Assembly (NCBI GenBank): GCA_016839605.1
Contig: JAEOTX010000188.1
Span: 1 to 22,105, forward strand
From: Candidatus Thorarchaeota archaeon
Lineage (GTDB): Archaea > Asgardarchaeota > Thorarchaeia > Thorarchaeales > Thorarchaeaceae
Length of the DNA: 22,105 nt
Direction of reading: 5' to 3'
Shown: in pieces, positions 1 to 15,980 of the stretch
Layout of the letters: each line of letters starts with the position of its first letter
Numbering within the stretch: the stretch's first letter is position 1
Program-made: the position numbers and the translations under genes
Notes under the pieces: model-generated
Told to the model about the DNA's origin: nothing
Seen by the model: only the letters and a program-made list of their open reading frames with translations
The model's database searches: none

Positions 1-801
1 AACGCTACAACTGATGTTGTAACTGCAGAAGAGATTAGAAACGGAATTCTTGATGACTACGACATCGTTGCTGTTCCAGGGGGATGGGCGTGGGCGTACT
101 ACCAAGACCTTGGAAGTTCGGGAGTTGTGTATATCCGCCAGTTCGTGGAGAATGGTGGTGCATTTTTTGGAGTCTGTGCTGGGGCATACTTTGCGTGTGA
201 CGGCATCAGATGGGAGGGCGGTTACATAGAGTATACACTTGATCTGTACCCGAATATTGGCAATGGGCCTATAGAAGAAATTGCGGCCTGGCCAGGTTAT
301 AACATGACGAGGATTAACCTGAACAAAGGCGCTGTAGGGCCAGACCTTTCTGGAGAGCCAGATTCCCACATTGTGATGTACTATGGCGGACCATATTTTG
401 AAACCAGTGGTACAGAGGGAGTCACTACTCTTGCTACTTACGATGCCAATGATGAGCCGGCGATAATAGCTTATGAATATGAACAGGGGCGGATAGTGCT
501 TTCAGGCCCTCATGTTGAATGGGAGGAAGATGCTGATCGAGATGGAGTGGCGTGGGTCAACGCGTATGATGATGAAGGGTCCGAGTGGAATATGATGCTG
601 AAGATTGGTCTTTGGCTCTCTGAGGGTGCTTCCACAACTTCTACTACAAGTGCCAGCACTGCTTCTGTTACAACTACTACTACGACCACTGTGAATCCCA
701 GTCCATCACCAACACCGCTCGAGATTGACCCGGTCGTTGGACTTGTTGCCATTTTCGCTGTTATTGCGGTTGCAGTCATAGCTGAAAGGTTGAGAAAGTG
801 A
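1..801 (+). CDS. BPL-N / class I glutamine amidotransferase-like hydrolase with Thr/Ser/Pro linker and C-terminal TM anchor (5' truncated by window)
   Basis: Frame is open from base 1 (NATTDVVTAEEIRNGILDDYDIVAVPGGWAWAYYQDLG...), so the track start at 127 is internal. Motifs: PGG, GGAFFGVCAGAY nucleophile elbow, YYGGPYF, LSGPHVE (Cys-His-Glu). Ends in a T-rich linker, a hydrophobic helix and RLRK. Confidence 0.8.
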   Translation, partial: NATTDVVTAEEIRNGILDDYDIVAVPGGWAWAYYQDLGSSGVVYIRQFVENGGAFFGVCAGAYFACDGIRWEGGYIEYTLDLYPNIGNGPIEEIAAWPGYNMTRINLNKGAVGPDLSGEPDSHIVMYYGGPYFETSGTEGVTTLATYDANDEPAIIAYEYEQGRIVLSGPHVEWEEDADRDGVAWVNAYDDEGSEWNMMLKIGLWLSEGASTTSTTSASTASVTTTTTTTVNPSPSPTPLEIDPVVGLVAIFAVIAVAVIAERLRK

Positions 802-837
802 ATGATTTGAGGCAAGAAATGTGCGAATTCGATCATA

Positions 838-902
838 TGAGCACATGTTCATGACTAGCACACTATGAACAAGAGTGTTCGGTGGGTTTTAATCGGTGTA
901 CA
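838..902. promoter_or_regulatory. Phased TGWWCA operator boxes flanking a TATA-like element upstream of the ABC operon
   Basis: TGTTCA 846, TGAACA 866, TGTTCG 876, TGTACA 897 (spacings 20, 10, 21); TGAGCA 838; TTTTAAT at 887-893. Confidence 0.6.
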
Positions 903-949
903 CCTGTTATTTTTTACTAGCTAAACGCTAAATTCAGGATGTGACATCT

Positions 950-2893
950 GTGAAAAAGAAGGAAGCACTCCTGGCACTGACTCTGGCGGTCTTTATGATC
1001 TTACCAGTGTTTGCTTTCGTACCGACTACTGCAGTAGCGCAGACACCTAAGATTATCAAGATAGGGATGTTTGACGAACCAGACAGCCTTAATCCGGTCA
1101 TGGCCTCAGAAATCAGTTCATGGAGTATGATTAATTGGATATTTGACCCTCTGGTCAGATGGGATGATAACTGGGGCATCCAACCCGGTCTCGCAGAGAG
1201 CTGGGAGTGGGCAACAAACGGCTCTCAGTTAGTCATGCATATCGACCAAGATGCGGCATGGCATGACGGAACTCCATTTACAGCACATGATGCAAATTGG
1301 ACACTCTTTACATGGACCTGGCTTGGATTTTGGGTAGGTCAGACACCTCGCATTGATCATAGAAACATCAGAGTTCCGGATGACTACACCATCGTCCTCA
1401 ATTTTGTGGACAGTGGTTATGAGAACATAACCGAGTGGGCACTTGGTGGACTACCTAATAACGCCTACAATGGAACGCCTGTACAAGTCAACAAGGAAGC
1501 ATTCCTTACAGGACTCACCTATGTGCCAATCCTCGCAAAGCATCTGTGGGATCCGGTGACATGGTGGGACCCAATTTATGGTATCGGAACTTGGTACTGG
1601 GACACAGCACTTTGGAAGGATGCAATCTGGTGGGGCATGCTCGATCCTGCGTGGCCAACACCACTCAATGGAACTGGTGCATTCATGCTGGATGAATATG
1701 TTGTAGGAGAATACATGAGATTTGATGCCAACCCCAACTACCATTTGGGCGCGCCCAACGTCGATGGCATCCTTGTCACCTTCTACGACACCGTGGAAGT
1801 CATGACTGAGGCTGTAAAAGCCGGAGAAATTGATTTCTGCGAGACTGCACCTGCATTCATTGAGCTAGGTACCATTCCTGACACGGTCACCATAAATGAA
1901 AACCCGTGGATGGGCTGGGAAGGTCTCTTGGTGAACCAGTACTATAACTACACCAATGCTCAAGGAGAATATGCAGCTCGTCCAGTCAAGCACAATGCGC
2001 TCCTTCAGCCAGAAGTGAAAAAGGCAATGAATCAGGCTATTGACAAGGCGCAGATAGCTGAAGTTGCATATCTCGGACACGCGAATGCAGCTGATTCGCT
2101 AATCCATACTGAACTCAAGTGGTATAATGATGCCCTGATTACCTTTACTCAAGGCACTGCCGCAGCTCGGGCAACTCTCGAGGCGGCTGGATGGGTAGTG
2201 AATCTAGATGGAGTCTACGAGAAGGATGTAGATGGGACTGTTGAAACACTGTCCTTTGAAATCAAGTATGTCACTGGTGTTCCGACAGACTTCACAATTG
2301 TGTCGCTCGTTGGTGCATATCTTGAGGCTGCAGGATTTGAGATCACTGCAATCCCTCTTGAAGAAACAACCTTCACTGTGGACACCGCTACAGAGACTTG
2401 GAACTTTGACATAGCTCTAACCGCCTATAGTCAGATTGCTGATCCAAATAGCATGATGCAGTATATGACCAGTGACAGTTGGATCAACCCGAATGGTGTG
2501 AACATCACAAGGGTTGATGAGATATACAAGGAACAGCAACTGACAACCAGTGATACAACTAGGGCAGCTCTCTGTGATGAGTTCCAGCAAATAATGTACA
2601 ATGATTCAAGCATCATTATTCTCGTCGAGTTCAATGATATCGAGCTGTACAGAAACGATGTCTGGGAATTTACTCACACGGACTGGGAAAGTGGCATCTT
2701 TTCAATGTGGAACATCGATTCATGGCTAGAGGTTGACGTACCAACAGTACCAACAACAACGACAACACCAGTAACAACAACAACAGAACCACCACCACCA
2801 CCACCGCCGATTCCGATGGAACTGCTCCTTGCAGTCGGCTTAGGTATCGTGGTGCTGATAGTCGTTGTAGTGTTTGTTACTAGGAAAAGGTAG
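950..2893 (+). CDS. oppA: Peptide/nickel-family (family 5, DppA/OppA-like) ABC substrate-binding protein, signal peptide plus C-terminal membrane anchor
   Basis: Family 5 signature (DSLNP...IFDPLVRWD...PGLAESWE...WHDGTPFTAHD), GTGAF, VKKAMNQAIDK. Start moved to GTG 950 because SD AGGATGTGA (936-944) lies 5 nt upstream, giving MKKKEALLALTLAVF. Eight N-x-S/T sequons; Thr/Pro linker, TM helix and RKR tail. Symbol is family-level only. Confidence 0.92.
   Translation: MKKKEALLALTLAVFMILPVFAFVPTTAVAQTPKIIKIGMFDEPDSLNPVMASEISSWSMINWIFDPLVRWDDNWGIQPGLAESWEWATNGSQLVMHIDQDAAWHDGTPFTAHDANWTLFTWTWLGFWVGQTPRIDHRNIRVPDDYTIVLNFVDSGYENITEWALGGLPNNAYNGTPVQVNKEAFLTGLTYVPILAKHLWDPVTWWDPIYGIGTWYWDTALWKDAIWWGMLDPAWPTPLNGTGAFMLDEYVVGEYMRFDANPNYHLGAPNVDGILVTFYDTVEVMTEAVKAGEIDFCETAPAFIELGTIPDTVTINENPWMGWEGLLVNQYYNYTNAQGEYAARPVKHNALLQPEVKKAMNQAIDKAQIAEVAYLGHANAADSLIHTELKWYNDALITFTQGTAAARATLEAAGWVVNLDGVYEKDVDGTVETLSFEIKYVTGVPTDFTIVSLVGAYLEAAGFEITAIPLEETTFTVDTATETWNFDIALTAYSQIADPNSMMQYMTSDSWINPNGVNITRVDEIYKEQQLTTSDTTRAALCDEFQQIMYNDSSIIILVEFNDIELYRNDVWEFTHTDWESGIFSMWNIDSWLEVDVPTVPTTTTTPVTTTTEPPPPPPPIPMELLLAVGLGIVVLIVVVVFVTRKR
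2738..2815 (+). repeat. Low-complexity (ACA)n/(CCA)n tract encoding the Thr/Pro linker
   Basis: gtaccaaca x2, then acaacaacgacaacacca...accaccaccaccaccgccg, encoding VPTVPTTTTTPVTTTTEPPPPPPPIP. Confidence 0.85.
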
Positions 2894-2911
2894 CAGTGGA
2901 TTATAGATTGG

Positions 2912-2948: not shown

Positions 2949-2979
2949 ATAATCCAAAGAGAAAACAGAGTAGATTAGG

Positions 2980-5700
2980 ATGGCATTAAGAGACGTATTA
3001 CTCAAGCGAATAGCCCAAGCAATTGTTACAATCTTCATAGTTCTAGCAATCGATTTTGTGTTATTCCATATCCTTCCTGGCGACCCAATGACCTTCCTTG
3101 CTCGAAATCCCAACCTTACTGAGGTTGCCCAAGAGAGATTGATTGAGCAATTTGGACTTGATAAGCCACTGTGGGAACAGTTTATTCTATTCCTTGGAAA
3201 CTTCCTTACCATGAGACTTGGGATGTCATTCCATTTCAGAGAGGAAGTTGGACCAATAATAATGCACCACCTCGGAAATACTCTGATCTTAGTGGTTCCT
3301 GCATCAATCGTGGCGATTGTGGTTGGAATCTGGATAGGCAAGAACTCAGCCTGGCGGCGAGGCAAGGCAGCAGACCTCTTGGGCCTTCTGTTTTCGCTAA
3401 TTACGTACTCTATTCCCACCTTTTGGCTAGCCATGTTCTTCATCATGTTTTTCGCATTTGGGCTTGGTTGGTTTCCAGGGACACCAGGATTGACCACACC
3501 AGGCATGGACTTCACGGGCGATCCAATTGGTCTTGTTGTTGATATGATATCTCACTTGATGCTTCCATGGACTGTCCTGATTGTTGCAATCTTGGGTTCA
3601 TTTGCACTAATCACGAGAAACGCTCTGCTGGACGTCTTAAGTGAGGACTATATGGTCACAGCTAAAGCCAAAGGAAGAACTGAGAAAGAACAGCTGAACA
3701 AAGAGGCGATGCCAAATGCCATGATTCCCATAACAACGGTCATCGCACTCCAGCTTGGATTTTCAGTAGCAGGGGCACTCCAGACTGAGGTGGTATTCTC
3801 CTACCCTGGGATTGGGAATCTGATTTGGGAAGGAGTTTACTATCGAGACTACCCACTCTTGCAAGCTAGCTTCTTCATGATCACTGTTGTTGTAGTATTT
3901 GCTAATCTTATTGCCGACTTCATCTACTTCTATCTGGACCCAAGGATTAGAGTTGGTGCAGAGTTCACGATTGGTGATGAGAAACCACCCAGACCGCTCT
4001 CTCATTACGGTCTAGCTGTTATAGCCATTGTCGCGCTTCTGTCTACATGGGCGGTCATAGGAATTACAACAATACTTCCTCTCTTCATTCTCATAGTGAT
4101 TCTAAAACGAAAGGGTATTGCTCAGTTCCTAAGAAACCAACTTAGCAAAATCAAGCCTTCAAACTTGCTATACGCATGGCAGAACAAGCGATCTCAGATC
4201 TTGGTTCGGTTCTCAGTGATTGCTTTATTTATCAATTTGATCGCATTGACCATCATCGCATCATCGGGAGTCTTCATCCCTGAATGGGGCTTCTTTTGGG
4301 CAGGTGCATTTTTCGGACTAGAACCATTTCCTCCTATACCCCCAGGAGTGGAATACCCCGATTGGTCAATGACACTGGCATCAATTGCACATCCATCGGT
4401 GATGCAAATCGCTCTAGTTGGTGTGACCGTCGGAGTCATTCTGAGTAGGAGAAAGAGCTTGGGTGCTACATCCAGTCGATTCATCAGAACACGAATGGGT
4501 ACGGTAGGAACTGCCACAGTAGCGATGTTCACAGGGATGACTATATTTGGAGACATTATAGCTCCATATGATCCTGAGGCATTCTTTACTGGGAATATCT
4601 ACCAGCCCCCTGATATTATGCCAGAAGCGCAATTGCTCATTCTGTCAGTGGGTGTGGCATCACTTCTTGGTGCAACCTTAATTTGGTGGATATTTGACCG
4701 ATTCAAGAGACCAGGGATTCCTAGATACTTCATCACTATTCTGAGTGGAGGGCTCATTGTTTACATCGCAGCTTTATTTGGAGCCCAATCGCTCTCTGTT
4801 GAGAACACGACTACCTTGATTTTCTCAGCTGCAATTGGTGCTATTGGCGGCGTTATCATTCTGAAGGGGCTTCTGAGTGCTAGGCTAGATTTTAGCCTTC
4901 AGAAGCTGCAAATGCATCTTCCAAGATTGGTTATTGCTCTTGTGGGAGTGATTGGCGTGGGTCTCATTGTGCAAGGCATACTGCATGCTCCATGGGTAAT
5001 ACCGCTCGAATTTCCAGGCTTCCACTTAATGGGTACTGATCAATTGGGAAGAGACGTATATAGTCAACTGATTATAGCTGTAAGAATCACACTTCTAGTT
5101 GGTATTGTGGCAACAGGAATGTCTGTAGTCATAGGCACCTTAATTGGCCTTGTTGCAGGCTACTTTGGTGGAATTATTGACTCTTTCCTGATGCGGTTCA
5201 CAGATATCTTCTTCGTGATTCCGAGCCTAATCTTGATGATTATCGTGGCGGCAGTGTTAGGCCCATCGATTGTAACACTAATTCTTGTGATTGGTTTGTT
5301 CTCATGGCCCTCTACTGCACGAATCGTCAGAGGCCAGGTATTAACAATAAAAGAGCGCACCTATATCGAGAGGGTAAGAGCAGTGGGAGGAAGTGACTCC
5401 TATATTATTACTAAGCATGTATTGACCGCAGTTGCTCCACTTGTTGTTGCCAATACAATCCTTGTCACCGCATGGGCAATTCTCTCGGAGGTTGTTTTGG
5501 ACTTCTTTGGGCTAGGAGATCCAGCAATGATCAGCTGGGGCACAATGTTGTATCTCGCATTCAGTGCAGGCTCAATGTCCAATAACCTCTGGTGGCTAGT
5601 ATTCCCACCAGGTGTCATGGTTGTGCTTCTCCTCCTTGGAGTATCTATGGTAGGATACGCTATGGATGAGATTGTCAATCCAAGACTTCGGAGGAGGTAG
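2980..5700 (+). CDS. Fused DppB-DppC (OppB-OppC) ABC permease with extra transmembrane insertions, 906 aa
   Basis: N-half is DppB-like (LPGDP, FGLDKPLWEQF, SIPTFWL, EAA loop LSEDYMVTAKAKG, RDYPLLQ, YLDPRIR). C-half is DppC-like (APYDP, HLMGTDQLGRDVYSQL, MRFTDIFFVIP, EAA loop YIERVRAVGGS, SWGTML, NPRLRRR). No stop between the halves. Confidence 0.9.
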   Translation: MALRDVLLKRIAQAIVTIFIVLAIDFVLFHILPGDPMTFLARNPNLTEVAQERLIEQFGLDKPLWEQFILFLGNFLTMRLGMSFHFREEVGPIIMHHLGNTLILVVPASIVAIVVGIWIGKNSAWRRGKAADLLGLLFSLITYSIPTFWLAMFFIMFFAFGLGWFPGTPGLTTPGMDFTGDPIGLVVDMISHLMLPWTVLIVAILGSFALITRNALLDVLSEDYMVTAKAKGRTEKEQLNKEAMPNAMIPITTVIALQLGFSVAGALQTEVVFSYPGIGNLIWEGVYYRDYPLLQASFFMITVVVVFANLIADFIYFYLDPRIRVGAEFTIGDEKPPRPLSHYGLAVIAIVALLSTWAVIGITTILPLFILIVILKRKGIAQFLRNQLSKIKPSNLLYAWQNKRSQILVRFSVIALFINLIALTIIASSGVFIPEWGFFWAGAFFGLEPFPPIPPGVEYPDWSMTLASIAHPSVMQIALVGVTVGVILSRRKSLGATSSRFIRTRMGTVGTATVAMFTGMTIFGDIIAPYDPEAFFTGNIYQPPDIMPEAQLLILSVGVASLLGATLIWWIFDRFKRPGIPRYFITILSGGLIVYIAALFGAQSLSVENTTTLIFSAAIGAIGGVIILKGLLSARLDFSLQKLQMHLPRLVIALVGVIGVGLIVQGILHAPWVIPLEFPGFHLMGTDQLGRDVYSQLIIAVRITLLVGIVATGMSVVIGTLIGLVAGYFGGIIDSFLMRFTDIFFVIPSLILMIIVAAVLGPSIVTLILVIGLFSWPSTARIVRGQVLTIKERTYIERVRAVGGSDSYIITKHVLTAVAPLVVANTILVTAWAILSEVVLDFFGLGDPAMISWGTMLYLAFSAGSMSNNLWWLVFPPGVMVVLLLLGVSMVGYAMDEIVNPRLRRR

Positions 5701-5708
5701 TAGAATAG

Positions 5709-6698
5709 ATGACAGAAACATCCTCGCCAGAAACTCCTGCTGGACAACCAGTACTCAAAGTGTCAGGGCTTAAGGTCTACTACCACATCTCTCAGGGAAT
5801 AGTCAAAGCAGTCGATGACATTGACTTCACTGTAGGTTGTGGGGAGTTTGTAGGCCTAAGCGGTGAGAGCGGATGTGGGAAGACCACTACCGCAATGACT
5901 CTACTACACATCCTTCCTCGGGAGGGAGTGGTTGAAGGTGGACAAGCCATCTTCGGCAATCGTGACATTCTCGCTTTCGACAAAAAGGCCATCGAAGATT
6001 TTCGGTGGCAGGGAGTTTCCATGGTCTTTCAGGGTGCAATGAACTCATTGAATCCAGTTCATCGTGTGATAGACCAGATGGTTGATGCAATCCTGATTCA
6101 TGAAGATGTGTCAAAGGAGAAAGCGAAAGAGATTGCACTTGAGTTGATAGAATCTGTTGGAATTGAGCGGTCGAGGGCAACTGCATATCCACATGAACTA
6201 AGTGGAGGGATGAAGCAACGTCTAATGATTGCCCTTGCACTTGTACTACATCCGCCCCTTGTGATTGCAGATGAGCCAACCACAGCGCTTGATGTGATGA
6301 TTCAGGCACAGATTCTCGATCTCTTCGGGCAGCTTAGGGATAAAACGAGTCTCTCACTCCTAATCATCACTCATGACTTGTCAGTGCTTGCTGAGACCTG
6401 TGATAAGGTCATCATAATGTATGCTGGAAAAATCGTTGAGGAAGCACTGACTGAGATTCTATTCAATGAACCAAGCCATCCATACACAAGGAAGCTCATT
6501 TCATCATTTCCAAGCATTCTTGCTGACAAGGAGATTGACTTCATTCCAGGAAATCCACCGGACCTCATTGATCCCCCCACCGGATGCAACTTCCATCCGA
6601 GATGCGAATATGCAATCGAAAAGTGTAGCAAGGAAGAACCTCCACTTGTTGATGAGGGGGGTCATAGGGTGGCTTGCTTCAGGAGGCATGAAATCTAA
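5709..6698 (+). CDS. oppD: Oligopeptide/dipeptide ABC transporter ATP-binding subunit (DppD/OppD)
   Basis: Walker A GESGCGKTT, signature LSGGMKQR, Walker B VIADEPTTALD, HPYT, C-terminal CxFHPRC-x6-C Cys cluster; SD GGAGGAGG upstream. Confidence 0.95.
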   Translation: MTETSSPETPAGQPVLKVSGLKVYYHISQGIVKAVDDIDFTVGCGEFVGLSGESGCGKTTTAMTLLHILPREGVVEGGQAIFGNRDILAFDKKAIEDFRWQGVSMVFQGAMNSLNPVHRVIDQMVDAILIHEDVSKEKAKEIALELIESVGIERSRATAYPHELSGGMKQRLMIALALVLHPPLVIADEPTTALDVMIQAQILDLFGQLRDKTSLSLLIITHDLSVLAETCDKVIIMYAGKIVEEALTEILFNEPSHPYTRKLISSFPSILADKEIDFIPGNPPDLIDPPTGCNFHPRCEYAIEKCSKEEPPLVDEGGHRVACFRRHEI

Positions 6699-7696
6699 TG
6701 GCGAATGCTATTCTCGAAACTAAGAATCTCAAAAAGTGGTTTACAGTGAGAGCAGGATTCCTCTCAAGCCTCGTTTCCAAGAAGTCTGACTCCTACATTC
6801 GAGCCGTTGATGGAGTCGACCTGGAAATCAAGCAAGGTGAGGTTTTTGGCATTGCAGGGGAGAGTGGTTGTGGAAAGACTACAATTGCAAGATTAGTTAT
6901 GCGATTGGAAACCTTAACAGATGGGGAAATCTGGTTTGAGGGAGAAAAAATCTCTGCATTCAATGAGGGGAAGTTCAAGGAGTATCGCAGAAGGATACAG
7001 ATGATCTTTCAAGATCCATATGGGTCATTGAGCAATAGCATGACCATAGGCGAGATTGTCGCAGAGCCTCTCAAGATCCATAATGTATATGCATCACCTA
7101 GTGAGATGGAGGACCGAGTAATGGCTGCCCTCGAAGACGTGGGGCTGCGTCCAGCTGAAGAGTTTGCTGGCAGGATACCACATGAACTGAGTGGAGGTCA
7201 AAGGCAACGGGTTGCGGTAGCTGCAGCACTTGTGTTGGATCCAGTCCTTCTGATTGCAGATGAACCAGTTTCAATGCTCGATGTCTCAATGCGGGGCCAG
7301 ATCCTGAAGCTATTGCTCGAGCTGAGGGAAAAGAAGGGCATTACGCTTGTATTGATAACACACAATTTGGCTGTAGCCAAGCAGATGTCTGACAGAATCG
7401 CAATCGCCTATCTGGGCAGAATCGTTGAAACTGGAGTTACGAAGGAGATTATTGACAACCCAAGTCATCCCTACACGAAAGCACTAGTTTCAGTTGTTCC
7501 TGTTCCAGAAACGGGTGTAAAGAGGGAGAGACTGTTGCTCACAGGAGAGATTCCTAGTCCCATTGATATTCCAACGGGCTGTAGATTTCATACCAGATGT
7601 CCATTTGCGAAAGACAAATGCAGCGTGGAGGAACCTGAGCTAAGGACAATGCCAGATGGACGACAGGTTGCCTGCCACGACGATGAGCAGGCATGA
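6698..7696 (+). CDS. oppF: Oligopeptide/dipeptide ABC transporter ATP-binding subunit (DppF/OppF)
   Basis: GESGCGKTT, QMIFQDPY, LSGGQRQR, IADEPVSMLD, HPYT, CRFHTRCP; TAATG stop/start overlap with the preceding gene. Confidence 0.95.
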   Translation: MANAILETKNLKKWFTVRAGFLSSLVSKKSDSYIRAVDGVDLEIKQGEVFGIAGESGCGKTTIARLVMRLETLTDGEIWFEGEKISAFNEGKFKEYRRRIQMIFQDPYGSLSNSMTIGEIVAEPLKIHNVYASPSEMEDRVMAALEDVGLRPAEEFAGRIPHELSGGQRQRVAVAAALVLDPVLLIADEPVSMLDVSMRGQILKLLLELREKKGITLVLITHNLAVAKQMSDRIAIAYLGRIVETGVTKEIIDNPSHPYTKALVSVVPVPETGVKRERLLLTGEIPSPIDIPTGCRFHTRCPFAKDKCSVEEPELRTMPDGRQVACHDDEQA

Positions 7697-7723
7697 AGCA
7701 GAGTGCATGTTTCTAAACAGAGC

Positions 7724-7801
7724 CGTTCAAGAGTCTGAAAATCTGTTCACCATTGTACACACATGTTGGCAGTCCTTTTCATCATGTTCATTCTTTGCAC
7801 A
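7724..7801. promoter_or_regulatory. Phased TGWWCA operator array upstream of the corrinoid/methyltransferase pair
   Basis: CGTTCA 7724, TGTTCA 7744, TGTACA 7754, TGTTGG 7764, TGTTCA 7785, TGCACA 7796 (spacings 20, 10, 10, 21, 11). Confidence 0.65.
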
Positions 7802-7833
7802 GCCGCATAAGTAGACAATCTGAGAGTGGTATC

Positions 7834-8481
7834 ATGGGCAATGCAATTGAGAATCTGAAACAGGCAGTCATCGATGGAGACGCTGACGCGGTATCCAAGT
7901 TCTCCGCGGAAGCACTGGAGTCCGGTGCTGCACCGTTAGATATCCTGGAAAAGGGGATTTCTGAAGGAGCAAAGACTGTCGGTGAGCAGTTTGAGAATAT
8001 GGAAATCTTCCTTACAGAGCTTATGCTCTCGGGAGAAGCTATGATGGCGGGGTTGGATGTTGTTCTGCCTCATATCCAAGCTGGAGATGTACCGAGAAAG
8101 GGAAAAGTCGTCGTTGGCACTGTGCGTGGCGATATCCACGAGATAGGCAAGAACATCTTCAAGTCGCTTCTCGTAGCTAATGGGTTCGAGGTGAGTGACC
8201 TAGGAGTCGATGTTCCAACTTCGAAATTCATTGAAGAGGCAGAGAAGACAAACGCGGACATCATTGCCGTATCAGCACTCATGACATCAACCCTTGGAGG
8301 TCAAAAGGATGTCATTGATTATCTCGAGCAGTCTGGCAATCGAGACAAGTTCATCGTTATGGTGGGTGGTGGTCCCACGAACCAGGAATGGGCAGACGAG
8401 ATTCGTGCAGATGGATTTGCTGAAACAGCACCTGAAGCTGTAAGAGTAGCAACTCAACTCATTGAGAAAAGGAGGGACTGA
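7834..8481 (+). CDS. mtmC: Methyltransferase cognate corrinoid protein (MtmC/MtbC/MttC family), 215 aa
   Basis: N-terminal cap domain (VGEQFENMEIFLTELMLSGEAM), B12-binding motif GDIHEIGKN (DxHxxG), DLGVDVP, SALMTST, VMVGGGP. ATG 7834 is preferred over TTG 7753, which would translate the operator array. Confidence 0.92.
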   Translation: MGNAIENLKQAVIDGDADAVSKFSAEALESGAAPLDILEKGISEGAKTVGEQFENMEIFLTELMLSGEAMMAGLDVVLPHIQAGDVPRKGKVVVGTVRGDIHEIGKNIFKSLLVANGFEVSDLGVDVPTSKFIEEAEKTNADIIAVSALMTSTLGGQKDVIDYLEQSGNRDKFIVMVGGGPTNQEWADEIRADGFAETAPEAVRVATQLIEKRRD

Positions 8482-8485
8482 TACT

Positions 8486-9865
8486 ATGATTCCAATCATC
8501 GAGATTGCAAAGAGGGCGCTTGATGGCAAACCTCTCATAGAGAAGGAGTATGATATGAGAGTCTTCTCGCCGAGGGTTCGCGAGCTGGTTAAGGAATACG
8601 GCATCAGCTACGATCCTGAGGTGCTTGTTCCATCCGATGATGGTCTTGCAGACGCTGTGTTCAAAGCGGCGTTTGATCTCATCTGTGATGTGGGAGTATA
8701 TTGTAAGGACACTGAGCGAATCATTGCTTTTGAGGAAAAGGAAGTCCGTAACGAACTCAAGACCTCTTATGATCATGCAGTTCTTGGTGAAGGTATGGAG
8801 CAGAGGGCTCTTCTTCCCAGGAAACCGGACTCAAAGGAAAAGCCCTGGATATTTGCCGGAGCGGGCGGTGTTACAGTCTCAGATGAGAGCATCTTCATGC
8901 GTTTGGTGGAGAACTATGCGAAGAGGATTCCAATTGCTAATGCCATAACAACTCCTTGTCTACTCTCAGTTGATGGTGCCACGATTCGAGCACGGTCGCC
9001 CCTCGAGATAGAGGGTTCAATCAGGACTGTTGTTCTGGGAAGAGAGGCCCTTAGAAGAGCGGGGAGGCCTGGACTGCCGATTATGAATGCAATAGGTACA
9101 GCTGAATCAGCAATTGCACTGGCCTCAGGTCTTCATCCAGACTTCGGACTACGAAAGACGGATGGTTATATGATAGCTGAATTGGCTGAGCTCAAGACTG
9201 ACCTTGACCTCCTTAACAGAGCCGCGTTACTACAGTCGTTGAATGTGCCTATAGCTGGCATCTATGGTCCAATCTATGGAGGATTTGCCGGTGGAGCTGA
9301 GGGCACTGCAGTCACAAGTGCAGCATTTCACATTCAAGGAATCCTGACTTATGGTGCATCCTGGACACTTTGTTTCCCCATTCATATCAAGTATACATCC
9401 AGCTCATCACCGGAATTGATCTGGCTAGCTAGCCTCTATGCTCAGGCTGTAAGTAGGAATACCAAGGTGCCTGCGCTCTATTACAACTACACTGCTGCAG
9501 GACCTTGTACAGAAATGGTCTTGCAGGAATTCGCATCAGAGTTCATTGCAGCAATCTCTTCGGGAGCCTCAATAGAAACGGGGGGTGTCGCTAAAGGCAA
9601 GTACTTCGACTATCTGTCACCTATTGAGCCGATGTTTGCCGCAGAGGTAGCGTACGCGAGTGCGGGTGTGAAGAGAGCGGATGCTAATGAGATTGTGAAG
9701 CAGATTGTTCCGAAGTTCATTGACAAAGTCCCAGATCCCCCAAGAGGGAAGCGCTTCCAGGATTCCTGTGATCCTGTGACTGGTGAACCGTCAAAGGAAT
9801 GCTTCGAGATATATGACAAGGTGAAGAAGGAAGTTACTGATCTGGGTATTGAATTCCTGTATTGA
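8486..9865 (+). CDS. mtmB: Monomethylamine methyltransferase MtmB-family homologue lacking pyrrolysine, 459 aa
   Basis: MtmB hallmarks: GVYCKDTERII, SPLE, AGRPG, ELKTD, PIYGGFAGG, PIHIK, AGPCTEM, AKG, PRGKRFQ, DLG at the C-terminus. Uninterrupted ORF with no in-frame TAG. SD GGAGG at 8471-8475 lies inside the end of mtmC. Confidence 0.9.
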   Translation: MIPIIEIAKRALDGKPLIEKEYDMRVFSPRVRELVKEYGISYDPEVLVPSDDGLADAVFKAAFDLICDVGVYCKDTERIIAFEEKEVRNELKTSYDHAVLGEGMEQRALLPRKPDSKEKPWIFAGAGGVTVSDESIFMRLVENYAKRIPIANAITTPCLLSVDGATIRARSPLEIEGSIRTVVLGREALRRAGRPGLPIMNAIGTAESAIALASGLHPDFGLRKTDGYMIAELAELKTDLDLLNRAALLQSLNVPIAGIYGPIYGGFAGGAEGTAVTSAAFHIQGILTYGASWTLCFPIHIKYTSSSSPELIWLASLYAQAVSRNTKVPALYYNYTAAGPCTEMVLQEFASEFIAAISSGASIETGGVAKGKYFDYLSPIEPMFAAEVAYASAGVKRADANEIVKQIVPKFIDKVPDPPRGKRFQDSCDPVTGEPSKECFEIYDKVKKEVTDLGIEFLY

Positions 9866-9870
9866 TGCAG

Positions 9871-11013
9871 TCATCCTAAGCGGTACTTCCTGCCAACCTC
9901 TGGTTTCTCGCCGAAGTAGAGGACTGCAGTGGAAACACCCTCCTCGCGTGCAAACTCGTCCACACCGTCGAAACGCAGAAGCGCAAGTAGAAGCTTGAGT
10001 CCAAGATCTTTCATGAAGGATGTTCGTGATCTGAGTTGCACTCGGGTTAGTTCATTCTCACTGCGTACATCACACCGCTCTAGAAGGCCAAGAGAAGTCA
10101 CACCCAATGCAGCGCGTTTCACGTGGTCGACTATACTGGTTGGAGTCTCAGATCCGTGTGGGTCAATCTGTTCTATGTAATCACGTATACTGACCACTGT
10201 TCTCTCATCTAAGGCGTCCTTGATTGTATTGTTCGTCAACCATTCCAGAAGTGATGGATTCAAAGTGACAGTCCCGCTCTGTCCGGCTTGCATCAGCATT
10301 AGCTCTCTCCGTTCTCGCCAGAGACTGAGAACCCGTCGGTCACGTTCTTCCTTGATATTTTCGAAGAGCAGGGGGTCAACCCACATTACGCTGATCTTGT
10401 TCTCAGCAACAACTTCTGCATCTACTGAGTATCCCGCTTCATCCCATTCAGCTATGAGCATCATCAAGAGTATCTCTGGCTGTTCACGCATGAGCTTGGC
10501 TGTTGCTAAGATCGTCTTCCTTTCTGGATGGACCTCAACTGACCCAAAAATGCCCATTCTCCCTAAGAGCGCTACATTACTTGCAAATGAATCAAAGGTG
10601 TTCTCCCACATGTCCTGAGGGATTGTCCCAAGCCCACGAAGTAGCTTCGTCTGCTGATGTCCTATCTTTCGCAGCCGTGCAATAAGTTCCGATGCTCCCT
10701 GACCTGAGCACCCCAACTGGGCAAGAACGGACAGAACCTGGGAACTCACAAGACCCATATCAGCGGAGTCAATGAGCGATCTCCGAAGATTCGACACCTC
10801 CATAGCGTCACAATCATCGCAGCTGGGAATATCCTTTCGAGTGCTGTAGAACCTGACAGCTTCTTCTAGTGCATCATTGATGCGTCCCGATTCACCAGCT
10901 AACTCCTTCAAGAGTTGGCGTGTGCGCGCAGAGATGGTTGTATGTAGATGCACCCGAGCTGCAGTGGACCTATGCTTCTCATTGAGCGCATCCTTTTTTT
11001 GCTCTTCAGCCAT
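9871..11013 (-). CDS. Putative transcriptional regulator: N-terminal ribbon-helix-helix, CxxC, two tandem V4R/HNOB-like domains (380 aa)
   Basis: SD GGTGA upstream of ATG 11013 (MAEEQKK). RHH-like segment VHLHTTISARTRQLLKELAGESGRINDALEEAVRFY, then CDDC, then two similar ~130-aa units. Domain calls are by eye. Confidence 0.6.
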   Translation of the reverse strand: MAEEQKKDALNEKHRSTAARVHLHTTISARTRQLLKELAGESGRINDALEEAVRFYSTRKDIPSCDDCDAMEVSNLRRSLIDSADMGLVSSQVLSVLAQLGCSGQGASELIARLRKIGHQQTKLLRGLGTIPQDMWENTFDSFASNVALLGRMGIFGSVEVHPERKTILATAKLMREQPEILLMMLIAEWDEAGYSVDAEVVAENKISVMWVDPLLFENIKEERDRRVLSLWRERRELMLMQAGQSGTVTLNPSLLEWLTNNTIKDALDERTVVSIRDYIEQIDPHGSETPTSIVDHVKRAALGVTSLGLLERCDVRSENELTRVQLRSRTSFMKDLGLKLLLALLRFDGVDEFAREEGVSTAVLYFGEKPEVGRKYRLG

Positions 11014-11071
11014 GAACATCACCAAGAGGAGCATGTTCACAATAATGTTGTAGACAAGTCTGCGTGAACAT
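11013..11071. promoter_or_regulatory. Phased TGWWCA boxes in the divergent regulator/deacylase intergenic region
   Basis: TGAACA 11013 (overlaps the regulator start codon), TGTTCA 11034, TGAACA 11065 (spacings 21, 31). ATGTTCAC 11033-11040 and GTGAACAT 11064-11071 form a perfect 8-bp inverted repeat. Confidence 0.65.
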
Positions 11072-11181
11072 AAGGTCTCCGAATCAGAATACACAGACAC
11101 TTCAGAACCGGAACGATGCTATAGCAGGGTTAATCAAGGGGAGAGGCCTGAGAGATGTTTCTAGGAGGCTTCCGTTAGAAG

Positions 11182-12471
11182 ATGACCACTGGACAGATAG
11201 AATCAGTCTTGAAATGGATCAGTACGCATCAAGAGCACCTTGTAAGACTGACCCAAGACCTTGTGCAAATTCCTAGTATTTCAGGAGAGGAATATGCAGT
11301 ACAGAAACGAGTCCACAAAGAGCTTGAACAAATGGAACTTAGTCCTCAAATGTTCAATCCTGATGACAAAAAACTCCGAAAGCATAATGACTTCTTTGAA
11401 ACCACATCTTTCACAAAGTATGGATATGAGAACAGACCGAATGTCGGAGGCGTTCTGGAAGGATCAGGAGGAGGTCGCTCCATCTGTTTGAGTGGTCACA
11501 TCGATGTTGTGTCACCAGAGCCCTTGGACAAATGGACTCGCAGTCCATGGTCAGGAGATGTAGTTGATGGCAACATCCATGGACGTGGAGCCGGAGATAT
11601 GAAGGCAGGAGTAGCTGCCATGATCTTGGCCGTGCAGGCACTTCAAGAGAATGGCATCAATCTAAAGGGGGATGTACAGGTCGAAACCACCATCGAAGAG
11701 GAGGATGGGGGAATCGGCGGAGTCTTCTATATGCGAACGGTTCGTCCCAAGACTGATGCTGCTTTTGTTCCAGAGCCAGGTAATCTTGCTATCAGTGTAG
11801 CGAGTGCTGGCGTCATGTACTTCAGAGTGACTGTGCGAGGCGTCCCTGCACACGCCGCCACTGCGCATTTTGGTGTGAATGCAGTTCAAAAGATGATGCC
11901 AGTCATAGATGCGATTCAGAGTCTCCATGAAGCGCGACAGGCTAGAATCAGTTACAGCTATGCAGAATCAGACCCAAGAATGAAGGGAAGGGCTACGACA
12001 ATTAACATCGGTGTCATCAAGGCAGGCGACTGGCCATCCACAGTTCCCGCTGAATGCACAGTTGAGTGTAGAATTGGATTTCCGCCAGGCGAAACAAGGG
12101 AAGAAGTGATGAAACAAGTAGAGGATGCTGTACAAGAAGCTAGTAAGAGAGATGACTGGCTAAAGACGAACCCACCTGTCGTAGATTGGTTTGGCTGGAA
12201 AGCACGACCACATGAGTTGGATCCAACCAATGACTTCGTACAACTAGTTAGGCAAAATGTCATTGATGTGGCTGGCAGAGAGCCAGCTTTCATGGGAGGT
12301 TCAGCTGGTCTGGACACGAGGTTCTTTGTACATCATGGAATTCCTGCTCTGACCTGTGGACCCTATGCCGAGAGAATCCACTCCTTTGATGAAATCGTGA
12401 GTATTGAGTCAGTTGTGCAGACATCTCAAGTCATTGCAAAGACAATGCTCGAATGGTGCGGCACTCAATAA
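11182..12471 (+). CDS. ArgE/DapE-family (peptidase M20A) metal-dependent deacylase
   Basis: IPSISGEE, LSGHIDVV, GRGAGDMKAG, IEEEDGG, VPEP, AHAA...GVNA, INIGVIKAGDWPSTVP, IHSFDE; SD AGGAGG upstream. Confidence 0.92.
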   Translation: MTTGQIESVLKWISTHQEHLVRLTQDLVQIPSISGEEYAVQKRVHKELEQMELSPQMFNPDDKKLRKHNDFFETTSFTKYGYENRPNVGGVLEGSGGGRSICLSGHIDVVSPEPLDKWTRSPWSGDVVDGNIHGRGAGDMKAGVAAMILAVQALQENGINLKGDVQVETTIEEEDGGIGGVFYMRTVRPKTDAAFVPEPGNLAISVASAGVMYFRVTVRGVPAHAATAHFGVNAVQKMMPVIDAIQSLHEARQARISYSYAESDPRMKGRATTINIGVIKAGDWPSTVPAECTVECRIGFPPGETREEVMKQVEDAVQEASKRDDWLKTNPPVVDWFGWKARPHELDPTNDFVQLVRQNVIDVAGREPAFMGGSAGLDTRFFVHHGIPALTCGPYAERIHSFDEIVSIESVVQTSQVIAKTMLEWCGTQ

Positions 12472-12478
12472 CTAAAGC

Positions 12479-13246
12479 CTAAAGGAGAACCACTGCGAGT
12501 ATCCCTGTGAGAAACACTCCATCCCAGGTCCCTGCTCCGCCAATGGAAGCAGCATCAGTCTTTAGTTGAGACAACTTCCCAAGATTCAGAAAGTCGGCAC
12601 CAATTATGGTTCCCAGTGTTCCAGAGATGTAGGCGATTGCATACAGATTGATGATTCCAGGAAATATCATTCCAACAGCAAGAGTTGCTAAGACCGCTGC
12701 AAGCGGAGGCAAAAGCGCTGGAGTGACAATCCCCATGTTAGGCTCAATCCTTGCAATTCGGTGAACAGCAATTGTCACTGCTGTGATAGCAAACAGGATC
12801 GGGATTATGGACAGAAGGTTCAGAAGGATAAGATACCCGCTCACTATGACAGGTATCACAGCTCCACCGAGATTTATACTAATCTTGGTTTCGCGAGGTG
12901 TCGTAGGCTGAAACACCTGAAAGCTGAATCCCCAGTCAGACAGGTAGGGTGCCTCAACCAGGGGAGAAGACTCCGCCTGAATTGTGTACAGTGGAATATT
13001 CACTAGACTCCCCATAAGAGACCCAGGAACTATCAAGATAGCTAGCCATATCGGTATGCCGATCTGTATGAAGGCAACTCCTGCTGCCTGGATGAGAAAT
13101 AGACTCATCATGGCAAACATAAGGACTGCCAATGGTGAGGTAGGCCGTCTCTCTAATCGCCTCCTCCTAGGATTCAGTTCTCTATTCGGTTCTTCATCGA
13201 AAACGATTGGAACATTCTCATCATCGCTTTCTGAAGATAAATGCAA
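12479..13246 (-). CDS. DUF1614-family membrane protein
   Basis: GSLVNIP, INLGGAVIP, AYISGTLGTIIGADFLNL, ASIGGAGTWDGVFLTGILAV; multiple TM helices. Start codon uncertain. Confidence 0.82.
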   Translation of the reverse strand: MHLSSESDDENVPIVFDEEPNRELNPRRRRLERRPTSPLAVLMFAMMSLFLIQAAGVAFIQIGIPIWLAILIVPGSLMGSLVNIPLYTIQAESSPLVEAPYLSDWGFSFQVFQPTTPRETKISINLGGAVIPVIVSGYLILLNLLSIIPILFAITAVTIAVHRIARIEPNMGIVTPALLPPLAAVLATLAVGMIFPGIINLYAIAYISGTLGTIIGADFLNLGKLSQLKTDAASIGGAGTWDGVFLTGILAVVLL

Positions 13247-13283
13247 TGACCAACCTGGATTTCTGGATTTAGTCCGGTTTCGA

Positions 13284-13451
13284 TCACTCAGCGGCAGATT
13301 CCGCCTCCCACTTGTTTACTGGATTACCTGGATGAGCCATCTTGTGAACAAATAGGTCACACCCACATGTTTTGCATGAGGCTTCTCTCTCTTCATGGTC
13401 GGACCTTTCGTGGTCACACATACATTGCTCCAAAGCTCTCAAATCTATCAT
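13284..13451 (-). CDS. Small Cys/His-rich zinc-finger microprotein (55 aa)
   Basis: SD GAGGTA upstream of ATG 13451. Motif C-x-C-x-H-x4-H-x6-C-x2-C-x-C-x2-F (CMCDHERSDHEEREASCKTCGCDLF). Fills an otherwise empty gap, co-oriented with the DUF1614 gene. Confidence 0.7.
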   Translation of the reverse strand: MIDLRALEQCMCDHERSDHEEREASCKTCGCDLFVHKMAHPGNPVNKWEAESAAE

Positions 13452-13591
13452 TTCTTTACCTCTCATTTGGACATTGACCGTTTCTCATTTACACTAATTA
13501 ACGTTGGTCAAGAGGCAGGAAACAGGCTCCCTCGTGCTTAAATCCCAAATCCCATCTAGACTAAGGTAGGTGCATTATCACGATTGATATC

Positions 13592-14179
13592 TTGAACTTC
13601 TTAGTATTGTGTCTCATGATTGCCCTCTCCAGTGTGTATTACATCAAGAGCGTAAGTCCTGCAGCTTTGGAGCAGCAAATAGGAGAAAGTGCATACGAGA
13701 AGAGTGCAAGAAACAGGAAAGTAGCAACTGCCGCATATTATCTCATGTTTCTGAACTATGTCATCTACTACTTCTATCCGCTGTCCACACCATTACCCGA
13801 CTTCTTTCCATGGGAGTATTGGATTACCGCGGTAATAGCTACAGGGATATTCCTTCCAAGTATGTACCTCATGTATATTGGAGCAAGAGATGCGGGAGAA
13901 GAAACACTGACACCTAAGAAAGAGCATACTCTGTACGGTGGAATATATGAGAAGATTCGACATCCTCAGGCTCTAGGAGAGGTATGGTTGGGATTAGTGA
14001 TTGCACTATATCTCAACTCACCTCTGCTGGCGGCTCTCTCCTTGGTCTTCTTCCCTACATTCTATTACTTTAGCTTGGTCGAGGAGAAAGACCTTGTGAT
14101 ACGATACGGTCAGGACTACACTGAGTACAGAAAAAGAACAGGCATGTTCATTCCAAAAAGGAAACCCAAAGACGAGTAA
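13592..14179 (+). CDS. Isoprenylcysteine carboxyl methyltransferase (ICMT/Ste14/PEMT)-family membrane methyltransferase
   Basis: Several TM helices; GIYEKIRHPQALG; EEKDLVIRYGQDYTEYRKRTGMFIP. Confidence 0.85.
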   Translation: MNFLVLCLMIALSSVYYIKSVSPAALEQQIGESAYEKSARNRKVATAAYYLMFLNYVIYYFYPLSTPLPDFFPWEYWITAVIATGIFLPSMYLMYIGARDAGEETLTPKKEHTLYGGIYEKIRHPQALGEVWLGLVIALYLNSPLLAALSLVFFPTFYYFSLVEEKDLVIRYGQDYTEYRKRTGMFIPKRKPKDE

Positions 14180-14217
14180 TCAATGCAGAGAAGAAAAACG
14201 TTGGTCTGTATCGAGGG

Positions 14218-14805: not shown

Positions 14806-14869
14806 GGAACTCGGTCCCGTTGAGCGATTGTCTTTAAACCAATGGCACAAGATAGTCTGGTGATGAAAC

Positions 14870-15391: not shown

Positions 15392-15398
15392 TACTCCT

Positions 15399-15956: not shown

Positions 15957-15980
15957 TAGAACTATCAACTCAAACTAGAT

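What the first reader, a model, noticed from the sequence alone, without database searches (positions are those of the whole stretch)
8486..9865. Full-length MtmB homologue with no amber codon at the pyrrolysine site
Seen: after the conserved AGRPG the DNA reads CTG CCG ATT ATG AAT GCA ATA GGT ACA (LPIMNAIGT, 9074-9100), and there is no in-frame TAG anywhere in the ORF. Established: methanogen MtmB has AGRPGMGV-Pyl-GPETS, and Pyl is catalytically required for methylamine; Pyl-free MttB relatives (MtgB, MtcB, MtpB) act on quaternary amines. Inference: with Met/Asn here and the following Glu also replaced, the pocket vacated by Pyl could accept a bulkier N-methylated substrate. I know of no settled substrate for Pyl-free MtmBs.
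Basis: partly seen in the sequence, partly recalled or inferred. Interest (0 to 1): 0.7.

Follow-up and report, generated by a model that had tools for sequence, protein, structure and literature searches.

The report
Pyrrolysine-free MtmB methyltransferase, Thorarchaeon
An Asgard (Thorarchaeota) archaeon from marine sediment has a complete, pyrrolysine-free relative of the methanogens' methylamine methyltransferase beside its vitamin-B12 carrier protein and a peptide-type importer; this enzyme class is already recognised, but what this branch takes methyl groups from is still unknown.

Summary
ORF 8486-9865 (+) is an uninterrupted 459-codon gene. It matches Pfam MtmB end to end, and its model superposes on M. 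barkeri MtmB (TM 0.95). It reads GRPG-LPI-M-N where MtmB has GMGV-Pyl-G. The genome shows no PylS or PylD, and TAG is its commonest stop codon.

The gene belongs to a well-supported subfamily with an invariant P-I-M-N motif. This subfamily occurs in Thorarchaeota, Bathyarchaeia, Methanomethylicia, Thermoplasmata, Chloroflexi and Desulfobacterales.

The claim that no Pyl-free MtmB has a settled substrate is out of date. MtqB of Methanococcoides, which acts on tetramethylammonium and choline, was published in 2026. The window's protein is only 24-32% identical to every Methanococcoides Pyl-free homologue I recovered and lies in a different clade, so it is not an MtqB orthologue.

The surrounding genes are a corrinoid protein, an Opp/Dpp-type ABC importer, an RHH-like regulator and an M20 deacylase. 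Relatives carry class-III aminotransferases, saccharopine-dehydrogenase-like genes, DDAH-like genes and AFOR nearby. This points to demethylation of an imported N-methylated amino-compound, with the methyl group feeding the Wood-Ljungdahl pathway. The substrate is untested.

This scan has flagged Pyl-free MtmB homologues in at least 67 other genomes. It is a new member of a known, mostly uncharacterised kind, of moderate interest.

The parts
8486..9865 (+). Pyrrolysine-free MtmB-family methyltransferase (459 aa), 'P-I-M-N' subfamily. Met200 (9083-9085) lies at the Pyl-aligned position and Asn201 (9086-9088) follows it.
7834..8481 (+). Cognate corrinoid (B12-binding) protein, about 215 aa counted from the ATG at 7834 (the longest ORF starts at the TTG at 7753). 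It carries the DxHxxG cobalt-ligand motif (GDIHEIG).
   Evidence: Pfam B12-binding and B12-binding_2. NCBIfam MtgC-like 221 bits and pyl_corrinoid 210.6 bits, both below their cut-offs. Orthologues align from about residue 28. A corrinoid gene lies beside the MtmB-like gene in 56 of 79 loci.
941..2893 (+). Family-5 solute-binding protein (Opp/Dpp/Nik type) with a Thr/Pro-rich linker and a C-terminal membrane anchor.
   Evidence: Pfam SBP_bac_5. PDB relatives are peptide and nickel binders at no more than 66 bits. Syntenic in Thor relatives.
2980..5700 (+). Fused DppB/DppC-type ABC permease (906 aa).
   Evidence: Pfam BPD_transp_1 twice, plus OppC_N.
5709..7696 (+). Two Opp/Dpp-type ABC ATPases (5709-6698 and 6698-7696).
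   Evidence: Pfam ABC_tran plus oligo_HPY.
1..801 (+). 3' part of a secreted, membrane-anchored protein with a BPL_N / class-I glutamine-amidotransferase-like domain. It heads the ABC operon in relatives.
   Evidence: Pfam BPL_N 78.7 bits. Synteny.
9871..11013 (-). 380-aa protein with no Pfam-A match and an N-terminal ribbon-helix-helix-like motif (RVHLHTTIS...GRIND). Candidate local regulator, lying tail to tail with the MtmB-like gene. The start is taken as the ATG at 11013, not the GTG at 11100.
   Evidence: No Pfam family. Alignment A4. Present in all 16 Thor-family genomes that carry the MtmB-like gene, and otherwise full-length in only one. In that one genome (G335) it sits beside the same ABC operon with no MtmB gene. 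Atlas lead: AF_0136_C family.
11182..12471 (+). M20 ArgE/DapE-family deacylase, divergent from the regulator gene.
   Evidence: Pfam Peptidase_M20 plus M20_dimer. NCBIfam PRK06837 366.9 bits. Kept nearby in 5 loci.
844..851 (.). CATGTTCA box upstream of the ABC operon (a second, one-mismatch copy lies at 866-873).
7783..7790 (.). CATGTTCA box in the promoter region of the corrinoid/MtmB-like gene pair.
11013..11072 (.). Three ATGTTCA/TGAACAT boxes (11013-11020, 11032-11039, 11065-11072) in the divergent regulator/M20 promoter region.

Best explanation
The gene encodes a pyrrolysine-independent, corrinoid-dependent substrate:corrinoid methyltransferase (an 'MT1') with the MtmB TIM-barrel fold, in a non-methanogenic Thorarchaeon. 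It most likely removes a methyl group from an imported N-methylated organic nitrogen compound. That compound would be amino-acid-, peptide- or amide-derived and larger than free monomethylamine, and probably not tetramethylammonium or choline. The methyl group is loaded onto Co(I) of the adjacent corrinoid protein. A second methyltransferase encoded elsewhere (MtrH-type, less likely MtaA/UroD-type) would pass it to H4MPT or folate and into the Wood-Ljungdahl pathway, and a RamA-type activase would keep the cobalt reduced. Shown here: family, fold, absence of Pyl, the subfamily signature, the conserved gene neighbourhood and the presence of the partner genes. Inferred: direction of transfer, class of substrate, which MT2 is used, and the fate of the methyl group.
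For: Family and fold: PF05369 over its full length. The AF2 model has pLDDT 97.5 and superposes on 1L2Q at TM 0.95 and rmsd 1.4 A.

No Pyl: there is no in-frame stop. PylS and PylD models are not matched above noise in the genome, which is 80% complete. No tRNA-CUA was found. TAG ends 39% of ORFs of at least 300 codons, whereas Pyl users use TAG for under 5% of stops (PMC12180501).

Conserved, selected signature: the core clade of 27 representatives (support 0.999) has Met200, Asn201, W121, T155, P157, T205, Y335, E364 and P382 invariant, with I148, A126 and G227 in 26 of 27. A wider 'x-N' clade has support 1.0.

Partners: a corrinoid gene lies beside the gene in 56 of 79 loci. The genome holds 3 MtrH, 6 UroD-family genes, RamA and CdhC, but no McrA. 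In the Bathyarchaeia locus L069 the module reads corrinoid, MtmB-like, MtrH-like, RamA, and in L133 MtmB-like, corrinoid, MtrH-like.

Substrate class: in 7 or more Thor loci the pair sits behind a BPL_N/SBP5/permease/ATPase importer. An ATGTTCA box is shared by the importer, corrinoid and regulator promoters. The regulator co-occurs with the gene in 16 of 16 genomes.

Recurrent neighbours in other phyla: class-III aminotransferase in 10 loci, saccharopine-DH-like in 11, DDAH/ADI-like in 9, AFOR in 8, Lrp/AsnC in 8, plus M20, M28, M24/creatinase-like, CN-hydrolase and aldehyde dehydrogenase.
Against: There is no biochemical or expression evidence, and no RNA run holds the stretch. SBP5 transporters also carry nickel, opines and sugars, so 'peptide-type' is loose. 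The regulator/importer island exists without the MtmB pair in G335, so the linkage is not obligatory. Neighbour counts come from related genomes and are not independent. No MT2 gene is in the window. The pocket could not be inspected because no coordinates are returned. The only characterised Pyl-free MtmB uses quaternary amines and shows a trace of monomethylamine activity.
Confidence: 0.6

Rival explanations
1. It is a functional equivalent of MtqB: a choline/tetramethylammonium:corrinoid methyltransferase.
For: MtqB is the only Pyl-free MtmB with a demonstrated activity (PMC13044021). That paper notes Pyl-free MtmBs in Asgard archaea. The subfamily-specific invariant aromatic residues (W121, Y335, mostly Y228 and Y303) could form a cation-pi cage for a quaternary ammonium group. 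That role is untested.
Against: All Methanococcoides Pyl-free homologues I recovered are only 24-32% identical to this protein. These are the WP_048204865.1 / WP_135612167.1 (strain AM1) type and the WP_342126935.1 type. They carry other motifs (GREGLTLMGPG, GRSGLCCVSPP) and fall outside the 61-leaf clade that holds this protein. No BCCT/OpuA-type choline or betaine transporter is in the island. The Q3c MtqB sequence itself could not be obtained.
Confidence: 0.12
2. It demethylates free monomethylamine (or dimethylamine) without pyrrolysine, that is, it is a true MtmB in function.
For: The fold is almost identical to MtmB. MtqB shows a small monomethylamine activity. In 9 Thermoplasmata loci a DDAH/ADI-like gene lies a median 79 bp from the homologue, directly upstream in locus L111. 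DDAH enzymes release mono- or dimethylamine from methylarginines (established enzymology, recalled, not tested here).
Against: In MtmB, pyrrolysine is the group that binds and activates the amine (PMC9842639), and here a thioether side chain replaces it. Residues aligned to MtmB Glu229 and Glu259 are Met and Ile. The gene is linked to a large-solute ABC importer, not to an ammonium/methylamine channel.
Confidence: 0.07
3. It uses a methyl donor that is not an amine (an O-methyl or S-methyl compound), the MtmB scaffold having been recruited to another chemistry.
For: Several acidic positions of the wider family are hydrophobic in this clade (I148 where most others have Glu, and Met/Leu at 229). 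That would suit a neutral substrate. The genome has several other corrinoid/UroD-type modules of unknown donor.
Against: Every characterised member of the family acts on N-methyl groups. The recurrent neighbours are amine and amino-acid enzymes: aminotransferases, DDAH-like, saccharopine-DH-like and peptidases.
Confidence: 0.08

Closest known systems
MtmB1 of Methanosarcina barkeri (pyrrolysine-dependent monomethylamine:corrinoid methyltransferase; PDB 1L2Q, 1NTH, 1TV2; Pfam PF05369)
   Same: Same Pfam family over the full length and the same TIM-barrel fold (TM 0.95, rmsd 1.4 A, about 30% identity). The GRPG segment before the catalytic site is conserved, as are family-wide residues (E174, D226, K237, GG265-266, T342). 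A cognate corrinoid protein is encoded next to it.
   Different: No UAG or pyrrolysine: Met200 sits at the Pyl202-aligned position, followed by an invariant Asn and a 3-4-residue insertion. Met and Ile sit where MtmB has Glu229 and Glu259. The host has no Pyl machinery and no MCR. The context is an ABC importer island, not a methanogen mtm operon.
MtqB/MtqC of Methanococcoides methylutens Q3c (tetramethylammonium/choline:corrinoid methyltransferase; Kashyap et al. 2026, PMC13044021)
   Same: A Pyl-free MtmB homologue paired with its own corrinoid protein. It shows that the scaffold can work without Pyl on bulkier N-methyl substrates.
   Different: The Methanococcoides Pyl-free homologues are 24-32% identical to this protein, lie in other clades and have other site motifs. 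MtqB feeds CoM and methanogenesis through MtbA, whereas this genome lacks McrA and has MtrH and CODH/ACS. The transporter context differs.
Pyl-free MttB-superfamily quaternary-amine methyltransferases (MtgB, MtcB, MtpB, MtyB)
   Same: The same logic: a Pyl-free relative of a Pyl enzyme, working with a corrinoid protein on a larger N-methyl substrate. Genes of this superfamily lie near the MtmB-like gene in 19 of 79 loci, and the own genome has three.
   Different: A different protein family (PF06253). The model matches MttB and MtgB structures only at TM about 0.5 and 11-12% identity.

Membership tests
MtmB family (Pfam PF05369) in the broad sense | Full-length match to the family profile above the gathering score | tested here: met
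   309.8 bits against a cut-off of 25; residues 4-455 match profile positions 3-450 of 450.
MtmB family (Pfam PF05369) in the broad sense | MtmB-type TIM-barrel fold | tested here: met
   AF2 model with pLDDT 97.5. Foldseek against 1L2Q gives TM 0.95 and rmsd 1.4 A over 456 columns.
MtmB family (Pfam PF05369) in the broad sense | Cognate corrinoid protein encoded next to it | tested here: met
   B12-binding protein at 7834-8481 with DxHxxG. The pairing is seen in 56 of 79 loci.
Pyrrolysine-dependent monomethylamine methyltransferase (MtmB sensu stricto) | In-frame UAG encoding pyrrolysine at the position of Pyl202 | tested here: not met
   There is no internal stop; ATG (Met200) sits at the aligned position.
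Pyrrolysine-dependent monomethylamine methyltransferase (MtmB sensu stricto) | Host encodes pylS, pylBCD and tRNA-Pyl and avoids TAG as a stop codon | tested here: not met
   PylS and PylD score only 16-19 bits, which is noise. No tRNA-CUA was found. TAG is 39% of stops of long ORFs. Caveats: the genome is 80% complete, and pylB and pylC were not searched.
Pyrrolysine-dependent monomethylamine methyltransferase (MtmB sensu stricto) | Monomethylamine-dependent methylation of MtmC or cob(I)alamin | not testable with these tools
   This needs an enzyme assay.
MtqB (tetramethylammonium/choline methyltransferase clade) | Clusters with Methanococcoides MtqB in the family tree (the paper reports 78-87% identity within Methanococcoides) | tested here: not met
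   Identity is 24-32% to every Methanococcoides Pyl-free MtmB homologue I recovered, including the strain AM1 protein, and they fall outside the 61-leaf clade with support 1.0 that holds this protein. Caveat: the Q3c sequence (peg.950, 459 aa) was not available, so I cannot say which Methanococcoides type is MtqB.
MtqB (tetramethylammonium/choline methyltransferase clade) | Works with MtbA/MtqA and methyl-CoM reductase (methanogenesis) | tested here: not met
   No McrA in the genome. MtrH and CdhC are present instead.
MtqB (tetramethylammonium/choline methyltransferase clade) | Activity with tetramethylammonium or choline | not testable with these tools
   This needs an enzyme assay.
MttB superfamily (PF06253; MtgB, MtcB, MtpB, MtyB) | Match to the MTTB profile and fold | tested here: not met
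   The only Pfam family matched is MtmB. MttB and MtgB structures match at TM 0.49-0.55 and 11-12% identity.

The most novel reading that the evidence does not exclude
The P-I-M-N subfamily might be a demethylase for N-methylated basic amino acids or related omega-N-methyl amines: methyl-lysine, methyl-ornithine, or amines derived from methylarginine. These would be released from imported peptides or amides. The substrate's own alkyl-ammonium chain would occupy the space that the lysine-derived pyrrolysine side chain plus bound methylamine fills in MtmB, in the same way that glycine betaine is thought to mimic the trimethylamine-Pyl adduct in MtgB. This would be an undescribed anaerobic, B12-dependent way of recycling methyl groups from protein methylation marks into acetyl-CoA, in Asgard, Bathyarchaeia and Thermoplasmata sediment archaea. 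It rests only on neighbour genes (saccharopine-DH-like, class-III aminotransferase, DDAH-like, ArgE/DapE/LysK-type M20, Lrp/AsnC, peptidases, peptide-type importer) and on clade-specific aromatic residues whose position in the pocket I could not check.
Probability: 0.15. Interest if true: 0.8.

Novelty: new member of a known kind. Interest (0 to 1): 0.4.

Why it matters
Pyl-free MtmB homologues are widespread in uncultured anaerobes and are routinely annotated as 'monomethylamine:corrinoid methyltransferase'. That label wrongly suggests methylamine use. Only one member, MtqB, has a known substrate.

This window gives a clean example of a different, well-delimited subfamily. It has an invariant P-I-M-N site, a cognate corrinoid protein, a dedicated importer island, a candidate regulator and a shared promoter box. 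Together these supply what is needed for a substrate screen.

If the substrate is an N-methylated amino compound from decaying biomass, it would add a methyl source for the Wood-Ljungdahl pathway in Asgard, Bathyarchaeia and Thermoplasmata sediment archaea. It would also inform the debate on whether pyrrolysine enzymes evolved from such Pyl-free ancestors or the reverse.

Tried and rejected
I obtained contexts through the genome search, the fetch from genomes and the search for related loci instead.
- The first alignment (A1) was too diverse for the search for related loci, so I repeated the search with A2.
- The '1 TAG' flagged in Asgard locus L040 is that gene's own stop codon, not a Pyl site. 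No Pyl-type MtmB was seen among 400 Asgard genomes.
- The Q3c MtqB sequence could not be obtained. Only its length and mass are in the supplement (459 aa, 49,382 Da). Matching by mass was inconclusive. Two Methanococcoides Pyl-free types were found, and I cannot say which one is MtqB.
- A literature search for the roles of MtmB Glu205, Glu229 and Glu259 found nothing in the held library, so their roles are treated as recalled and unverified. PMC5864231 (Thorarchaeota genomics) is not held.
- Regulator candidate: its model is only moderate (pLDDT 68.6) and Foldseek gave no meaningful match. The best hits are designed proteins, and H-NOX/V4R-type hits have E 0.02-0.05. The Atlas lead to the AF_0136_C family is unverified.
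- No RNA holder is listed for the stretch.
- ARAGORN found only 13-14 tRNAs in the genome, so the lack of a tRNA-Pyl hit is weak on its own.
- PDB relatives of the SBP and the M20 enzyme gave no clue to specificity.
- Cavity sizing by superposition could not be done, because the tools return no coordinates.
Full report
**Observation**

ORF 8486-9865 (+) translates to 459 residues with no internal stop and ends in TGA. A GGAGG lies just upstream of the ATG.

The protein matches Pfam MtmB (PF05369) over the whole profile, at 309.8 bits and E 4e-92. It hits M. barkeri MtmB (1L2Q/1NTH) at E 8e-64. AGRPGLPI-M-N aligns to AGRPGMGV-Pyl202-G.

An AlphaFold2 model built on 149 homologues has pLDDT 97.5. 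It superposes on 1L2Q with TM 0.95 and rmsd 1.4 A. MttB and MtgB structures match only at TM about 0.5.

The gene is therefore real, complete and a true MtmB-fold protein. One detail of the finding depends on the alignment. HMMER puts a four-residue insertion after Asn201 and pairs MtmB Glu205 with Glu207. MAFFT pairs it with Ile203. The position is not conserved in the subfamily.

**Organism and pyrrolysine**

The closest proteins (88-96% identity) come from Thorarchaeota, 'Hermodarchaeota' and Sifarchaeia-labelled MAGs. The DNA occurs in marine-sediment metagenomes. The genome is 3.08 Mb in 259 contigs and 80% complete, and it has a single MtmB homologue.

- PylS and PylD models find only noise.
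- ARAGORN finds no tRNA-CUA, although it finds few tRNAs at all.
- TAG terminates 39% of ORFs of at least 300 codons, making it the commonest stop. Pyl-using methanogens use TAG for under 5% of stops (PMC12180501).
- Among 400 Asgard genomes, 50 carry an MtmB homologue and none has a stop at the Pyl site. The one flagged TAG is that gene's own terminator.

**Place in the family**

HMMER against 1.84 billion representatives finds 978 relatives. In trees of up to 184 sequences, the window's protein sits in a core clade of 27 representatives (support 0.999).

- Invariant in all 27 are Met200, Asn201, T155, P157, T205, Y335, E364 and P382.
- W121, A126, I148 and G227 are conserved in 26 of 27. At position 148 most other family members have Glu.
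- A wider clade of 61 (support 1.0) keeps the Asn. It includes a second Asgard group with a G-F-H-N motif.

Named members of the near clade come from the following groups:

| Group | Identity to this protein |
|---|---|
| Thorarchaeota | 69-95% |
| Bathyarchaeia | 52-63% |
| Methanomethylicia | 55% |
| Thermoplasmata, including the non-methanogenic RBG lineages | 42-48% |
| Chloroflexi, Desulfobacterales, a spirochaete | 40-46% |

Other Asgard families reach only 43% or less. The Thor copy is therefore closer to Bathyarchaeia genes than to other Asgard ones, and it is patchy within its own genus (8 of 16). This suggests lateral spread.

**Comparison with what is known**

[quoted passage not shown] MtqB of Methanococcoides methylutens Q3c demethylates tetramethylammonium and choline, with a trace of monomethylamine activity. 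The other Pyl-free clades were left as unknown (PMC13044021).

I could not obtain the Q3c sequence; only its length and mass are given. I did recover two Pyl-free types in Methanococcoides:

- The WP_048204865.1 / AM1 WP_135612167.1 type, with motif GREGLTLMGPG. It is shared with Methanohalobium, Methanohalophilus and Methanolobus.
- The WP_342126935.1 type, with motif GRSGLCCVSPP.

Both are 24-32% identical to the window's protein. Both fall outside its 61-leaf clade, as does a Pyl-type MtmB of Methanomassiliicoccaceae. Orthology to MtqB is therefore not supported, although an MtqB-like substrate cannot be excluded.

**Neighbourhood**

In the window the gene order is:

1. BPL_N-like secreted protein.
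2. SBP5 binding protein.
3. Fused permease.
4. Two Opp-type ATPases.
5. Corrinoid protein.
6. MtmB-like gene.
7. On the opposite strand, a 380-aa protein with no Pfam match.
8. An M20 ArgE/DapE-type deacylase.

This order is kept in Thor relatives down to 88% MtmB identity. It is kept in rearranged form at 73-79%.

The unknown protein has an RHH-like N-terminus. It is present in all 16 Thor-family genomes that have the MtmB-like gene, and always nearby. Otherwise it is full-length in only one genome, G335. There it flanks the same importer operon without any corrinoid/MtmB pair. It therefore belongs primarily to the importer island, and the methyltransferase pair is an add-on to that island.

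The heptamer ATGTTCA/TGAACAT occurs 9 times in 486-14365 of the window, where about 1.7 are expected by chance. The exact octamer CATGTTCA sits in all three promoter regions, with one-mismatch copies beside two of them. The heptamer recurs upstream of the importer, corrinoid or regulator genes in most of the 10 orthologous Thor loci, depending on the locus. This fits one regulon, as another first-stage note on this window proposed.

**Neighbours in other phyla**

I clustered 843 neighbouring ORFs from 79 loci and counted loci that carry each family within 7 kb:

| Neighbour family | Loci |
|---|---|
| Corrinoid protein | 56 |
| MttB-superfamily gene | 19 |
| Saccharopine-dehydrogenase-like | 11 |
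| Class-III aminotransferase | 10 |
| DDAH/ADI-like (Thermoplasmata, median 79 bp from the gene) | 9 |
| Aldehyde:ferredoxin oxidoreductase (AFOR) | 8 |
| Lrp/AsnC regulator | 8 |

M20, M28, M24/creatinase-like, CN-hydrolase, Amidohydro_3 and aldehyde dehydrogenase genes also recur.

In the Chloroflexi locus L121 the order is corrinoid, MtmB, MtmB, aminotransferase, AFOR; L109 has a similar run with a second corrinoid gene and three MtmB copies. That reads like N-methyl amine to amine to aldehyde to acid. Two Bathyarchaeia loci add an MtrH-like gene, one of them with RamA.

These counts come from related genomes and are not independent. Even so, the theme is amine, amino-acid and amide catabolism, not methanogen-style C1 amines.

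**Mechanism proposed**

This is a Pyl-independent MT1 that methylates its corrinoid protein from an imported N-methylated amino compound. The own genome supplies candidates for the later steps: three MtrH, six UroD-family genes, five further corrinoid proteins, RamA and CdhC. McrA is not found. The methyl group would therefore enter the H4MPT/folate Wood-Ljungdahl route that is described for Thorarchaeia (PMC9635834).

What replaces Pyl chemically is unknown. The subfamily-specific Met-Asn pair, the hydrophobic replacements and the invariant aromatic residues are candidates for a binding cage. I could not verify that they line the pocket.

**Verdict**

- This scan has already noted Pyl-free MtmB homologues in at least 67 genomes, including several Thorarchaeia with the same motif.
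- This is a new member of a known, largely uncharacterised kind, with a well-defined island that makes the substrate question testable.

Noticed in passing
window 15981-19049 (-): A 1022-aa fusion of an APH-type kinase, an M23 peptidase domain and a class-III aminotransferase (NCBIfam PRK06148, 1208.9 bits). This resembles the kinase/phospho-lyase pairs that act on hydroxylysine or ethanolamine phosphate (recalled, not tested). It lies 6 kb from the MtmB-like gene and is kept in locus L075.
   Followed up: partly
whole genome G000: TAG is the most frequent stop codon of long ORFs (39%). A tRNA-Sec (anticodon TCA) gene is present.
   Followed up: partly
L138 (G335:C12) 8961-17883: A Thor-family genome has the same BPL_N/SBP5/permease/ATPase operon and the RHH-like 380-aa gene but no corrinoid/MtmB pair. 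The methyltransferase pair therefore looks like an insertion into, or a loss from, a pre-existing importer island.
   Followed up: yes
L067 (G372:C37) 8486-10523: One Thor genome carries a second, 69%-identical MtmB-like gene with its own corrinoid gene. It sits in a different context (an Lrp/AsnC regulator, no Opp island, no RHH-like gene).
   Followed up: partly
L111 9163-9924 and 8 other Thermoplasmata loci: A DDAH/arginine-deiminase-fold gene lies a median 79 bp from the MtmB-like gene (directly upstream in L111), where other loci have the corrinoid gene.
   Followed up: partly
L109 3615-13900; L132 6401-18000: Anaerolineales loci have three to four tandem P-I-M-N-related MtmB copies, followed by a class-III aminotransferase and an aldehyde:ferredoxin oxidoreductase.
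   Followed up: partly
window 2980-5700 (+): The two ABC permease subunits (DppB-like and DppC-like) are fused into one 906-aa protein. The fusion is kept in Thor relatives.
   Followed up: no
proteins P0247, P0281, P0287 (Methanomassiliicoccales-type): Close relatives (46-56% identity) of a Pyl-type MtmB carry Ile, Thr or Val at the Pyl position while keeping the following G-P-E. This looks like a separate, recent loss of Pyl (or its ancestor state) inside a methanogen lineage.
   Followed up: no
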